Source: Malacoraja senta
Lineage: Eukaryota
Reading direction: 5' to 3'
Assembly: GCA_038087875.1 (NCBI GenBank)
Contig: JAXLNO010002302.1
Coordinates: forward strand, 1-64,000
DNA: 64,000 nt
Part shown: in pieces, positions 51,001 to 54,000 of the stretch
Layout of the letters: each line of letters starts with the position of its first letter
Numbering within the stretch: the first letter of the stretch is position 1
Program-made: the position numbers

Positions 51001-54000
51001 GCACCTGCAGTTCCTTGCTACACATGAACTATGCGAATCCATGAACCTGTCTGAACAGCACAAATGACATGTTTTTTTATTGTTAAACCTCAGCTTGTGT
51101 TGCTGCACTGTGAGTGATCTTTCATCATTAATGTGCCCACAGGGTCAAGGGGAATAACTGGACCCAAGGAGATGAGGGGAGAGTTGGGGCAGTCGGTCAC
51201 TGTGGAATGTCAGTATGATCGGGAATACAGTGACAACAGGAAGCTATGGAGTAAAGGTGATTATTTCCTGAGATCTTCTATTGTGGTTTCTACTGATCAC
51301 CCACGACAAGCGAGAACATCGATAACTGATAACAAAACACAACTGATCGTTTCAGTAACCATCATCAACCTGGTGAAGAGTGATGAAGGATACTACTGGT
51401 GTGTGATAGTAAAGGGAATATTTTCAAACAATGAAAGGACCTCCATCTCATTGAAGGTTTCTGAAGGTACGTTGACGATCTCTCCTCACTCTCTCAGATG
51501 TGAAAATTCCAGCCTGGGAATTCCCGGCCTTGGTCCTGATAGGGACTCGGTGCCGCTTCCCCGGTTATCCGTGGGGGGGGGGTGAGGAGGCTTGGGGCAG
51601 GTGAGAGGGGAGTAGGGGGGATGCGCAGCAAGGGGCCACACCAAGAGCCCACTGTCCCCGGAGCAGTGTGTGTGTGTGTGTGTGGGAGGGGGGGAGCTCA
51701 TCAACGGGGACCGGCGGTTCTGCTGCTGACGGCTCATTTCCCCAAAGTCGATCTCTCCGGGACAAGAACCTCTGGTGCCCCCTCACTGGGGCAGGGGTGG
51801 GACCGCCCCCTCACCCTCTCCCCCTGCCCATCACTGTCACACCCACCACACACACAACATCTGAAGAAGGGTCCCAACCCAATACATCGTCTATTCATTC
51901 CTTCCACAGATGCTGCCTAACCTGCTGAGTTACTCCAGCACTTTGTGTTTTGCTCAAGATTCCAGCACCTGCAGTTCATTGTGTCTCACAAACTTTGGTG
52001 ATTCATGAGCTCAGTTAATGTTGTCGTTTGTACCGACGTACAGGGAAAAGCTTTTACCATGTTTCCAATGAGGGCCAAATCATTGGCTATTTTTAAGGTG
52101 GAGATTGACAGGTTCTCCATTAGTACGGGTGTCAAGATGTATGGGGAGAAGGCAGAATGGGGTTGAGAGGGAGAGATAGTTCAGCCATGATTGAATGGCA
52201 GAGTAGACTCAATGGGCCAAATGGCGTAAGTCTGTCCCTATCACATGAACATGAACGAAGAATCCTTGTGAGATGAGCGATATAGACTTTAGACTAAGTT
52301 ACACAAACTGTACAAGATGAAATACTCAACGGGTCGTGCACTATCTGTGGAGAGTGAACGAGAGTTAATGTTTCAGGTAGATACCTCCAACCAGATTGCA
52401 TTATTTCCAATTCAGTCCGTAATGCAAATAGTCCATGGATCCTCCCGCTCCCAAGTTGTTCTCCAACATAGAAGAAATGTGCCTAACTCTAGCAGCAGGC
52501 AGATAACACAGCCTGTGGGACTCTGAAGGGCATGAAAGGAGTCCCTGAATGGTTGCGACCATCCTGTGGCATCTTAATGCGTGAGCCTCCTGTCTAGACC
52601 AAGGGCTTGGTCCATCTATGGTGGCCTCAGAAGGAACCTTGCTCAAATCTCTGGATTGGGATTTGAACCCAGGAATCTCCCACACAGAGCAAGAGCGCTC
52701 CCAACTGAAGCATCTCCCACACCTCACTAAAGTGGCACAGAATGTGCTTTCAGACATTTAATGTTCAAAAACTTCATTCACTTTATCTCGACAAGTTTCT
52801 CAAACACGCCGCCCGGATATGGTCATCACCACCTTTGCAACAATAAGCACAAGGGCGCTGACCACCCTGCCTCAAGATGCACCAACCACCGAGGCAGCAA
52901 GTTTCACTGAGGCTTCTGGTTCAATACTTCCAAACAGGTTAGTAACTCAAAGAGCCAACTCAGCCTCACCTGAGAACAAATTAATTAAGTTCAATTCAGC
53001 TCAGTTAAAAGATACAGCGCGGAAATGGACCCTTTGGCCTACCGAGTCCGCTCTGAGCAGCGATCTCCCCATACACCAGTTCTGTTCTACATACTGGGGG
53101 CAATTTACTACAAACCCGCGCATCTTTGGAATATGGGAGGACACTGGAGAACCCAGAGTAAACTCTTGCAATCACAGGGAGAATGTACAAACTCTGCACT
53201 GACAGCACCGGTAGTCAGGATCGAACCCGCGTCTCCTGCGCTGTGAGGCAGCAACTCTACCGCTGTGCCGACATCTCAATGGGCGAGCCTCATGTCTAGA
53301 TCAAGGGGCTTGGCCCATCTATGGTCGCCTAGGAAGGATCCTTGTTCAAATCTCTGGATTGGGATTCGAACCAGGATTCTCCCCACACAGAGCAAGAGCT
53401 CTCCCAACTGCAGCATATCCCACACATCACTAAAGTGGCACAGAACGTGCTTTTAAACATTTAATGTTCAAAGACTTCATTCGCTTTATCTTCACAAGGG
53501 TCTCAAACATGTCACCCAGATATCCTCACCACTTTGGTGCGGGTGGGGGCATGGTGGTGCAGCGGTAGAGTTGCTGCCTTACAACGCTTGTAGCAGGGTG
53601 GGAGATTGCAACCTTCACGTGGTCCGCCCTGTTTCGACAAATGCATTCAACCCAGTGTGCAGAATTAAATCAGATCAAATAGAACAATTTGTCCAACAAC
53701 TTTAGGCTGTGCATGCCATACGCAAGAAGAGGAAGAATGCTTGTAGCGCCGGAGACCCAGGTTCGATCCCGACTACGGGTGCTGCCTGTACGGAGTTTGT
53801 ACGTTATCCCCGTGATCGTGTGGGTTTTCTCAGAGATCTTTGGTTTCCTCCAACGCTCCAAAGACGTACAGGTTTGTAAGTAGATTGGCTTGGCGTATGT
53901 GTCAATTGCCCCTAGTGTGTGTAGGCTCGTGTTAGTGTGCGTGGATTGCTGGTCGGTGCGGACTTCATGGGCCGTAGGGCCAGTTTCCGCGTTATATCTC

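What the first reader, a model, noticed from the sequence alone, without database searches (positions are those of the whole stretch)
51143..51466. All three Ig exons lack the family's second disulfide
CD300, pIgR, TREM and NKp44 V domains typically carry an extra C-C' disulfide (W-C-x(n)-C). Here the C-strand reads KLWSKG...SSIVVST (51143 copy), KRWSKG...SYTVVST (30485 copy) and KRWLKG...ETVAST (33752 copy), with no Cys at either position. The shared loss predates the duplications and may define a distinct subfamily with a more flexible CC' loop.
Basis: partly seen in the sequence, partly recalled or inferred. Interest (0 to 1): 0.68.

Follow-up and report, generated by a model that had tools for sequence, protein, structure and literature searches.

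The report
Skate CD300-like receptor lacking second disulfide
The exon encodes the single antibody-like domain of a skate immune receptor of the CD300/pIgR kind that has swapped both cysteines of the family's usual extra disulfide for serines, a loss shared by its skate relatives and seen repeatedly elsewhere in the family, so it is a modest variant rather than a new kind of molecule.

Summary
None of the three V-type Ig exons has a Cys at the C-strand (W-C) or C'-strand position.

The three exons are not equivalent:
- 51143-51466 (+) is intact.
- 30485-30808 (-) has lost its AG acceptor and its canonical F-strand Cys.
- 33752-34071 (-) is 4 nt short and frameshifted.

The intact exon belongs to a five-exon gene at 47976-61969: leader, IgV, Ser/Thr-rich stalk, Arg-bearing transmembrane segment, short tail. 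All splice sites are AG/GT and the exons sum to 246 codons plus a stop. The two defective exons lie in a mirror-image, apparently decayed paralogue.

The closest proteins are skate 'CMRF35-like molecule 3' and 'pIgR-like' predictions, 68-79% identical. The model's best fold match is mouse CD300lf (TM 0.91).

Of 481 related domains, 390 keep both cysteines. In a well-supported skate clade (467/500 bootstraps), 19 of 20 domains lack both. Stingray orthologues (13 of 13) and most shark orthologues keep them.

Similar losses occur in catshark, sawfish, sturgeon, characiform and catfish teleosts, and human pIgR D2.

Greater CC'-loop flexibility is not supported: loop pLDDT is 96-97, and loop variability equals that of stingrays. 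I class this as a new member of a known kind, of low to moderate interest.

The parts
47976..48072 (+). Gene A exon 1: start codon and signal peptide (MAVGQGEFTNQKRPRSRGTVALLVVVAVGLTS), ending in phase 1 before a GT donor
   Evidence: tblastn to skate proteins gives 83-91% identity over 33-35 aa
51143..51466 (+). Gene A exon 2, the exon of the finding: intact V-set Ig domain, 324 nt, phase 1-1, AG/GT. Canonical Cys22 and Cys86 are present; Ser36 and Ser44 replace the C-C' cysteines
   Evidence: (Pfam V-set 3.9e-13)
52796..52937 (+). Gene A exon 3: Ser/Thr/Pro-rich stalk (SQTRRPDMVITTFATISTRALTTLPQDAPTTEAASFTEASGSILPN), AG/GT, enters in phase 1 and leaves in phase 2
   Evidence: 81% identity to Amblyraja P0010 over 47 aa
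55131..55238 (+). Gene A exon 4: transmembrane segment with arginines (DVVLNVRRVLGVLRWVLFGVLLLFPVSISCVTTFK), AG/GT
   Evidence: 86% identity to P0010 over 42 aa
61900..61969 (+). Gene A exon 5: short cytoplasmic tail without tyrosine (KKPAETLKMRSAVVEEGEEQRR) and the stop codon
36295..36391 (-). Gene B (mirror-image paralogue) leader exon, open, 94% nucleotide identity to gene A's leader
33752..34071 (-). Gene B first Ig exon: AG/GT retained, but 320 nt instead of 324, so the frame shifts ahead of the F strand. Leu and Pro occupy the two C-C' positions
30485..30808 (-). Gene B second Ig exon: open frame of 324 nt, but the acceptor dinucleotide is GG and the canonical F-strand Cys is Trp. Ser/Ser at the C-C' positions, with the same codons as gene A
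25280..25387 (-). Gene B transmembrane exon, open, AG/GT, 97.6% nucleotide identity to gene A's
23178..23247 (-). Gene B tail exon with stop codon, 90% nucleotide identity to gene A's
21965..36933 (.). Left arm of a large inverted duplication, about 88-94% identical to the right arm. It carries gene B, and within it the Ig-exon unit is duplicated in tandem (30335-30966 vs 33606-34228, 89%)
47431..63154 (.). Right arm of the inverted duplication, carrying gene A

Best explanation
The exon is the single ectodomain exon of an apparently intact skate gene for an activating-type, single-Ig receptor of the CD300/pIgR-like (CMRF35-like) family. The predicted product has a signal peptide, one V-type Ig domain, a probably O-glycosylated stalk, a transmembrane helix carrying arginine, and a short tail with no tyrosine.

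By analogy with CD300, TREM and related paired receptors, the ectodomain would bind a ligand through its variable CC' and FG loops. The Arg-bearing helix would recruit an ITAM adaptor for signalling. This part is inference.

The domain belongs to a skate-specific subfamily whose common ancestor replaced both cysteines of the extra C-C' disulfide with serine. The domain is therefore held by the canonical B-F disulfide alone. The C' cysteine was probably lost first, because relatives with only the first cysteine exist and the opposite state does not occur in the elasmobranch set.

The other two exons lie in a mirror-image paralogue that carries the same loss. That paralogue looks like a pseudogene.
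For: Shown directly:
- Gene A has five exons, all with AG/GT sites and compatible phases. They sum to 741 nt, which is 246 codons plus a stop. This equals the length of Amblyraja radiata 'CMRF35-like molecule 3' (P0010, 246 aa), to which each exon matches separately.
- The domain is V-set (Pfam 3.9e-13). Its best solved-structure sequence matches are pIgR (9.7e-26 summed over domains; the best single domain is D5) and CLM-1/CD300f (4e-14).
- The AlphaFold2 model has mean pLDDT 96.3 and pTM 0.86. Its top Foldseek matches are mouse CD300lf (TM 0.89-0.93, rmsd 1.6-1.7 A, 32-33% identity), then human CD300f, pIgR D1, teleost pIgR, CD300a, CD300c and TREM2.
- Cysteine states in the 49 non-identical elasmobranch domains aligned, out of 57 extracted:
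  - Skates plus window: 19 of 20 lack both (commonly Ser/Ser). One, in Amblyraja P0010, keeps the first only.
  - Stingrays and mantas: 13 of 13 keep both.
  - Sharks: mixed.
- Neighbour-joining tree with the two Cys columns masked, 500 bootstraps: skates plus window 467, Myliobatiformes 486, catshark P0058+P0161 496.
- In the elasmobranch alignment, 8 domains have the first Cys only and 0 have the second only.
- Gene B defects: one Ig exon is frameshifted; the other has lost its acceptor and its F-strand Cys. The stalk-exon copy after each Ig exon keeps only about 20 nt before a tRNA-like SINE-type sequence. A third stalk-like piece has no AG acceptor.

Inferred from family knowledge: adaptor pairing through the transmembrane Arg, ligand binding through the CC' and FG loops (the two most variable segments), and O-glycosylation of the stalk.
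Against: - No transcript evidence was available, so expression and the splice model of gene A are unproven.
- Gene B's defects could in part be assembly errors.
- dN/dS between the window's copies is about 2, but it rests on about 5 synonymous differences and is not significant (Fisher p 0.08-0.11). It fits either diversifying selection or decay.
- The tree is a distance tree on about 105 columns. The deeper nodes are weak (skates+sawfish+electric ray 111/500; sharks 331/500), so the number of independent losses is uncertain.
- One skate domain (Amblyraja P0010), nested inside the Cys-less clade, has a Cys at the first position. A single clean ancestral loss therefore needs a reversal or gene conversion.
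- No ligand or adaptor is known for any member.
Confidence: 0.8

Rival explanations
1. All three exons, including 51143-51466, are decaying pseudo-exons. The missing cysteines would then be part of neutral decay rather than a feature of a working protein.
For: Two of the three copies carry disabling changes. The exons are no better conserved than their flanks: 84-89% identity in the exons against 86-98% in the flanks. dN/dS is at or above 1.
Against: The 51143 exon is open and keeps both canonical cysteines and the D-x-G-x-Y-x-C motif. It sits in a five-exon frame with consensus splice sites. The Ser/Ser state is shared by 19 of 20 domains in predicted proteins of three other skate genera, which neutral decay would not preserve. 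The AlphaFold2 model is very confident (pLDDT 96.3).
Confidence: 0.08
2. The domain belongs to an old lineage that never had the C-C' disulfide. It would be a primitively single-disulfide V domain, so nothing was lost.
For: Cys-less domains occur in several distant fish groups. Sawfish and one catshark protein in the same elasmobranch group also lack both cysteines.
Against: The closest non-skate relatives keep both cysteines: stingrays and mantas 13 of 13, plus Heterodontus, Mustelus, Carcharodon and Scyliorhinus torazame. Domains with only the first Cys occur in Narcine, Pristiophorus, Heptranchias, S. canicula and one Amblyraja protein. The catshark Cys-less protein pairs with a first-Cys-only paralogue inside the shark group (496/500). 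Both skate Ser codons are one step from Cys codons. Across the family, 390 of 481 domains have both.
Confidence: 0.07
3. Losing the disulfide freed the CC' loop to become a more flexible or more variable ligand-binding loop, giving the skate subfamily a new recognition mode.
For: The CC' loop is one of the two most variable segments of the skate domains (1.33 bits against a domain mean of 0.66). Differences between the copies are mostly non-synonymous.
Against: The same loop is equally variable in stingrays (1.39 bits) and sharks (1.46 bits), where most domains keep the disulfide. The AlphaFold2 model shows no drop in confidence across residues 31-50 (pLDDT 96-97). Loop length is unchanged relative to the stingray and Heterodontus orthologues that keep both cysteines.
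Confidence: 0.15

Closest known systems
Predicted skate proteins 'CMRF35-like molecule 3' (Amblyraja radiata P0007, P0009, P0010) and 'polymeric immunoglobulin receptor-like' (Leucoraja erinacea P0003, P0004; Rhinoraja longicauda P0001, P0002)
   Same: 68-79% identity to the exon. Same leader, stalk, Arg-bearing transmembrane segment and tail, exon by exon. Same loss of both C-C' cysteines. Same clade (467/500).
   Different: No hit is identical, so the window comes from another skate, or from a paralogue that is not annotated. These proteins carry 1-4 Ig domains, and some have an uncharged transmembrane segment with a tyrosine-bearing tail (P0001, P0004). Gene A has one Ig domain and the Arg-type transmembrane segment. 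All of them are automatic predictions with no experimental study that I could find.
Mammalian CD300 / CMRF35-like molecules (CD300f/CLM-1, CD300a, CD300c)
   Same: Best structural match (mouse CD300lf, TM 0.89-0.93, rmsd 1.6-1.7 A). Sequence E-values of 4e-14 to 4e-10. Single V domain, stalk and transmembrane architecture, with activating and inhibitory paired forms in the family.
   Different: Only 26-33% identity. CD300 domains are described as having a WCR motif and two disulfides (PMC3031540, passages read), whereas this domain has one. No ligand is known for the skate protein. Orthology to any particular CD300 gene is not shown.
Polymeric Ig receptor (pIgR), domains D1-D5
   Same: Best summed sequence match among solved structures (7jg2_E, 9.7e-26; D5 is the best single domain, 35 bits). 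It is the same V-domain type. Human pIgR D2 also lacks both C-C' cysteines in the alignment, which is a precedent for a single-disulfide domain in this family.
   Different: pIgR has five tandem domains (two in teleosts) and a long cytoplasmic tail for transcytosis. Gene A has one domain, an Arg-bearing transmembrane segment and a 22-residue tail. Nothing here suggests Ig transport.
[quoted passage not shown] 2006, Immunogenetics 58:362)
   Same: PMC3031540 (passages read) describes them as a multigene family of activating and inhibitory receptors in a skate, with Ig domains resembling CD300, TREM/TLT and pIgR. That is the same kind of family in the same group of animals.
   Different: This could not be tested. 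The 2006 paper is not held. No protein named MDIR came back from any of the three word-indexed searches. Whether this subfamily corresponds to a published MDIR, and whether the cysteine pattern was noted there, stays open.
TREM2 / TREM-1 / NKp44
   Same: V domains of the same broad group with a C-C' disulfide (TREM2 C51-C60; PMC5173322, passages read). Weak sequence matches (NKp44 1.3e-5, TREM2 about 5e-3) and structural matches (TREM2 TM about 0.8).
   Different: Much more distant than CD300 or pIgR. They are not the family of this domain.

Membership tests
CD300/pIgR-like (CMRF35-like) V-domain receptors | V-set immunoglobulin fold | tested here: met
   Pfam V-set 3.9e-13, above the cut-off. 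AlphaFold2 pLDDT 96.3 with eight strands. Foldseek top hits are CD300lf, CD300f and pIgR D1 at TM 0.83-0.93.
CD300/pIgR-like (CMRF35-like) V-domain receptors | Sequence homology to pIgR and CD300 domains stronger than to other V domains | tested here: met
   In phmmer against PDB, pIgR and CLM-1/CD300 fill the first 16 rows, ahead of NKp44, TIM, TCR and antibody V domains. The named relatives are all 'pIgR-like' or 'CMRF35-like'.
CD300/pIgR-like (CMRF35-like) V-domain receptors | Canonical B-F disulfide (Cys22-Cys86) with the D-x-G-x-Y-x-C motif | tested here: met
   Met in the 51143 exon. Not met in the 30485 copy, where the F-strand Cys is Trp. Out of frame in the 33752 copy.
CD300/pIgR-like (CMRF35-like) V-domain receptors | Second, C-C' disulfide (W-C ... 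C). This is typical of the family but not universal. | tested here: not met
   Ser36/Ser44 in the 51143 exon, and no other Cys in the exon. The feature is present in 390 of 481 family domains and absent from human pIgR D2. I therefore treat it as a usual trait rather than a condition of membership. Membership rests on homology.
CD300/pIgR-like (CMRF35-like) V-domain receptors | Gene layout: leader, phase-1 Ig exon(s), stalk, transmembrane and tail exons | tested here: met
   Five exons with AG/GT sites and compatible phases, 741 nt in total. Each exon matched separately to skate proteins. The exons were not joined into one sequence.
Activating members of paired Ig-like receptor families | Basic residue in the transmembrane helix and a short tail without ITIM or ITSM | tested here: met
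   Exon 4 reads ...NVRRVLGVLRWVLFGVLLLFPV.... The tail has 22 residues and no Tyr. Pairing with an adaptor is inferred, not shown.
Activating members of paired Ig-like receptor families | Association with an ITAM adaptor, and ligand binding | not testable with these tools
   No expression, interaction or binding data are available.
Skate MDIR family (Cannon et al. 2006) | Sequence identity or orthology to MDIR1-5 of the clearnose skate | not tested
   The paper is not held. The accessions are listed in PMC3031540, but no tool fetches them. No MDIR-named hit appeared.

The most novel reading that the evidence does not exclude
Skates may have converted a whole expanding, fast-diversifying subfamily of paired CD300-like receptors to a single-disulfide V domain, while keeping a two-disulfide sister subfamily (Leucoraja P0026) in the same genome. 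The conversion would have passed through an intermediate with an unpaired cysteine, a state still seen in electric ray, sawshark, cow shark and catshark. On this reading, repeated parallel loss across fishes would mark a change in how the CC' loop is used for ligand recognition.
Probability: 0.15. Interest if true: 0.45.

Novelty: new member of a known kind. Interest (0 to 1): 0.25.

Why it matters
The extra C-C' disulfide is treated as a hallmark of CD300, pIgR and TREM-type domains. This result documents a vertebrate clade in which an entire receptor subfamily has dropped it. It also shows probable stepwise intermediates in other elasmobranchs and parallel losses in bony fishes.

That makes the disulfide dispensable for this fold. 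It also gives a simple marker for sorting elasmobranch CD300-like genes into subfamilies.

The result is of use mainly to comparative immunologists annotating cartilaginous-fish receptor clusters. It does not reveal a new mechanism.

Tried and rejected
- Further Ig exons in the window: tblastn with the exon and with all 170-odd fetched proteins found only the three.
- Inhibitory-type transmembrane or ITIM-tail exons: residues 410-514 of Leucoraja P0004 have no match in the window.
- MDIR comparison: the 2006 paper is not held under its PMC id or its PubMed id, and a related review is not held under its PMC id. No MDIR-named protein came back.
- Literature on this cysteine loss in cartilaginous fish: searches returned nothing relevant beyond PMC3031540. 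Subscription papers and supplements are outside the library.
- Positive selection: dN/dS of 2.09 and 1.95 against the two defective copies, but Fisher p is 0.08-0.11. I make no claim from it.
- Higher CC'-loop variability in Cys-less domains: rejected. Entropy is 1.33 bits in skates, 1.39 in stingrays and 1.46 in sharks.
- A Biopython bootstrap run timed out. I replaced it with a numpy neighbour-joining script.
- One search used a wrong rule for match columns. Its counts are void and were replaced.
- A second AlphaFold job, for an orthologue that keeps both cysteines, was considered and not run. The tool returns no coordinates, so loop geometry could not have been compared.
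Full report
**1. What is in the sequence**

The window contains no N.

- At 51143-51466 on the + strand lies a 324-nt exon bounded by cacag| and |gtacg, in phase 1 at both ends.
- It translates to a 107-residue V-type Ig domain. Its only cysteines are C22 and C86, the canonical B- and F-strand pair.
- Two related exons lie on the - strand at 30485-30808 and 33752-34071.
- When the exon is aligned with shark orthologues that read W-C...C, the two positions fall at residues 36 and 44. They are Ser/Ser, Ser/Ser and Leu/Pro in the three copies.
- In the first two copies the codons are AGT and TCT, each one substitution from a Cys codon.

**2. The three exons are not equal**

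- Only the 51143 exon is intact.
- The 30485 exon has GG where the AG acceptor should be. The next AG downstream is out of frame. Its F-strand Cys is Trp.
- The 33752 exon is 320 nt, 4 nt short, and its frame shifts ahead of the F strand.
- The copies are 84-89% identical in nucleotides, and their flanks are 86-98% identical.

They are paralogues, so together they amount to one inherited character rather than three.

**3. The genes around them**

I matched skate proteins to the window exon by exon and read the junctions. This gives gene A on the + strand:

| Exon | Coordinates | Content |
|---|---|---|
| 1 | 47976-48072 | leader |
| 2 | 51143-51466 | Ig domain |
| 3 | 52796-52937 | Ser/Thr/Pro-rich stalk |
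| 4 | 55131-55238 | transmembrane segment, ...NVRRVLGVLRWVLFGVLLLFPV... |
| 5 | 61900-61969 | 22-residue tail without tyrosine, then stop |

- All sites are AG/GT and the phases are compatible.
- The lengths sum to 741 nt, which is 246 codons plus a stop. That is the length of Amblyraja radiata 'CMRF35-like molecule 3' (P0010).
- No concatenated coding sequence was made or searched.

Gene B is the mirror image on the - strand. It lies within a large inverted duplication whose arms are about 21965-36933 and 47431-63154, 88-94% identical.

- Its leader (36391-36295), transmembrane exon (25387-25280) and tail exon (23247-23178) are open.
- It carries the two defective Ig exons.
- The stalk-exon copy after each Ig exon keeps only about 20 nt before a tRNA-like SINE-type sequence.
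- A further stalk-like piece near 26476-26380 has no AG acceptor.
- Gene B looks like a pseudogene, although assembly error cannot be excluded.
- No other Ig exon exists in the window.
- No inhibitory-type transmembrane or tail exon was found either.

**4. What family it is**

- Pfam gives V-set at 3.9e-13.
- Against solved structures, the best sequence matches are pIgR (9.7e-26 summed over domains; D5 is the best single domain), CLM-1/CD300f (about 4e-14), and CD300c and CD300a. NKp44, TIM and TREM2 follow far behind.
- An AlphaFold2 model built on a 33-row alignment has mean pLDDT 96.3 and pTM 0.86.
- Its best Foldseek matches are mouse CD300lf (TM 0.89-0.93, rmsd 1.6-1.7 A, 32-33% identity). 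Human CD300f, pIgR D1, teleost pIgR, CD300a, CD300c and TREM2 follow.
- The closest proteins in the large collections are automatic predictions from skates:
  - Leucoraja erinacea 'pIgR-like', 76-79% identity.
  - Amblyraja radiata 'CMRF35-like molecule 3', 74-77%.
  - Rhinoraja longicauda 'pIgR-like', 68-70%.
  - Stingrays follow at 56-58%.
- None is identical. I therefore take the window for genomic DNA of another skate, or an unannotated paralogue. It is not human.

**5. Is the missing disulfide unusual?**

The exhaustive representative search found 1598 proteins at E <= 0.001. I took its best 150 plus the named hits, 157 proteins in all.

phmmer found 481 domain matches in 156 of these proteins:

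| State | Domains |
|---|---|
| both cysteines | 390 |
| neither | 54 |
| first only | 12 |
| second only (6 are register shifts) | 12 |
| gapped at that column | 13 |

- The first attempt at this census used a wrong column rule and is void.
- The family rule holds. It is also stated in print for CD300 (PMC3031540, passages read) and for TREM2, C51-C60 (PMC5173322, passages read).
- Named fish and amphibian relatives among the top hits keep both cysteines in most domains. These are bichir/reedfish, mormyrids, conger, stickleback and a caecilian.

**6. Who lost it**

From the named elasmobranch proteins I extracted 57 domains, of which 49 are non-identical, and aligned them.

| Group | C-C' cysteine state |
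|---|---|
| Skates plus the two in-frame window copies | 19 of 20 lack both (commonly Ser/Ser); Amblyraja P0010 has the first Cys only |
| Stingrays and mantas (Hypanus, Hemitrygon, Mobula) | 13 of 13 have both |
| Sawfish (Pristis) | neither |
| Electric ray (Narcine) | first only, 3 of 3 |
| Heterodontus, Mustelus, Carcharodon, Scyliorhinus torazame | both |
| Pristiophorus | first only |
| Heptranchias | one domain with both, one with first only |
| Scyliorhinus canicula | all three states, in three genes |

I built a neighbour-joining tree with the two Cys columns masked, using 500 bootstraps:

| Grouping | Bootstraps (of 500) |
|---|---|
| skates plus window | 467 |
| Myliobatiformes | 486 |
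| catshark Cys-less protein with its first-Cys-only paralogue | 496 |
| sharks | 331 |
| skates with sawfish and electric ray | 111 |

- The loss predates the split of four skate lineages and the duplications in the window.
- The disulfide was also lost at least once more, independently, in the catshark. That protein pairs with a first-Cys-only paralogue and groups with the sharks.
- The elasmobranch alignment has 8 domains with the first Cys only and none with the second only. This suggests that the C' cysteine goes first.
- A second Leucoraja 'pIgR-like' gene (P0026, on a contig of the same recorded length as that of P0003 and P0004) keeps both cysteines in all four domains. The Cys-less genes are thus a subfamily and not the general skate condition.

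Outside the elasmobranchs, Cys-less domains occur in:
- sturgeon and paddlefish second domains, again Ser/Ser;
- Astyanax, Prochilodus and Silurus;
- an axolotl protein;
- human pIgR D2 (alignment).

**7. Function and the flexibility idea**

By architecture, gene A encodes an activating-type member of a paired receptor family. Some relatives instead carry an uncharged transmembrane segment and a tyrosine-bearing tail (P0001, P0004).

Adaptor pairing through the transmembrane Arg and ligand binding through the loops are inferences from what is known of CD300 and TREM receptors.

- The CC' loop (residues 37-43) and the FG loop (90-97) are the most variable segments.
- Entropy in these loops is equally high across the three groups:

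| Group | CC' loop (bits) | FG loop (bits) |
|---|---|---|
| skates | 1.33 | 1.43 |
| stingrays | 1.39 | 1.20 |
| sharks | 1.46 | 1.73 |

- The AlphaFold2 model shows no dip in confidence over the loop (blocks 31-40 and 41-50: 97 and 96).
- Loop length is unchanged.
- Nothing here supports a more flexible or more diversified loop. Neither measure reads dynamics directly, so the idea is untested rather than refuted.
- dN/dS between the copies is 2.09 and 1.95, but not significant (Fisher p 0.08-0.11).

**8. Novelty**

- Close relatives are already in public databases as automatic predictions.
- The published skate family of this general kind is the MDIRs (Cannon et al. 2006, cited in PMC3031540). 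I could not compare with them. The paper is not held, and no MDIR-named protein came back.
- My literature searches found no description of this cysteine loss in cartilaginous fish. The library lacks most subscription papers, and supplements were closed.
- I rate it a new member of a known kind carrying a recurrent variant trait, with interest 0.25.

**9. Surroundings**

The rest of the window is rich in retroelement debris. This is described only; details are under 'noticed in passing'.

Noticed in passing
window 11188-16696: LTR-flanked, retrovirus-like or LTR-retrotransposon-like stretch. Two direct repeats of about 810 nt are 99.1% identical (11188-11997 and 15890-16696), with a perfect 300-nt core, and enclose about 3.9 kb. 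Inside, Pfam matches to the integrase zinc-binding domain and to the integrase core lie in two separate ORFs, so the integrase is in at least two pieces. No RT, protease or gag match was found in the 9 internal ORFs scanned. Described only.
   Followed up: partly
window 10355-19330: LINE-like ORFs surround the LTR element: a GDSL/OSK-type esterase (10355-10783), endonuclease fragments (10786-11223 and 16516-16971) and reverse transcriptase (17740-18453). The LTR element appears to be inserted into this LINE.
   Followed up: partly
window 1789-3219: A 477-aa ORF with weak reverse-transcriptase and GIY-YIG matches, both below the Pfam cut-offs. The combination is typical of Penelope-like elements; that name is recalled, not tested.
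   Followed up: no
window 27399-27827 (-), 41459-42247 (+), 57535-58326 (+): Further reverse-transcriptase or zf-RVT fragments of non-LTR elements. One lies in an intron of each receptor gene and one in the spacer between the genes.
   Followed up: no
window about 28720-28950 and 31480-31705 (-): The stalk-exon copy after each gene B Ig exon keeps only about 20 nt. It is then replaced by a tRNA-like SINE-type sequence shared by both copies, so the change predates the tandem duplication of the Ig unit.
   Followed up: partly
window 8976-9589: Minisatellite with a period of about 40 nt, 92-95% identical between units. It shows as a ladder of self-matches offset by about 37-40 nt.
   Followed up: no
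window 1-8000 versus 8001-20000: Strong and opposite GC skew: -0.29 to -0.58 in the first region, then +0.19 to +0.32 in the second. This coincides with low-identity internal repeats at 4751-7432 and with the retroelement block.
   Followed up: no
protein P0010 (Amblyraja radiata), domain 34-140: This is the one skate domain with a Cys at the C-strand position and Ser at C', nested inside the Cys-less clade. It implies either a reversal or gene conversion, and it would leave an unpaired cysteine.
   Followed up: partly
window 36579-36716 (-) and 47681-47794 (+): The C-terminal 38-49 residues of Rhinoraja P0002 match just upstream of both leader exons (73% identity). This suggests that the predicted P0002 model runs on into a neighbouring gene's upstream region, or that a conserved element lies there.
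   Followed up: no
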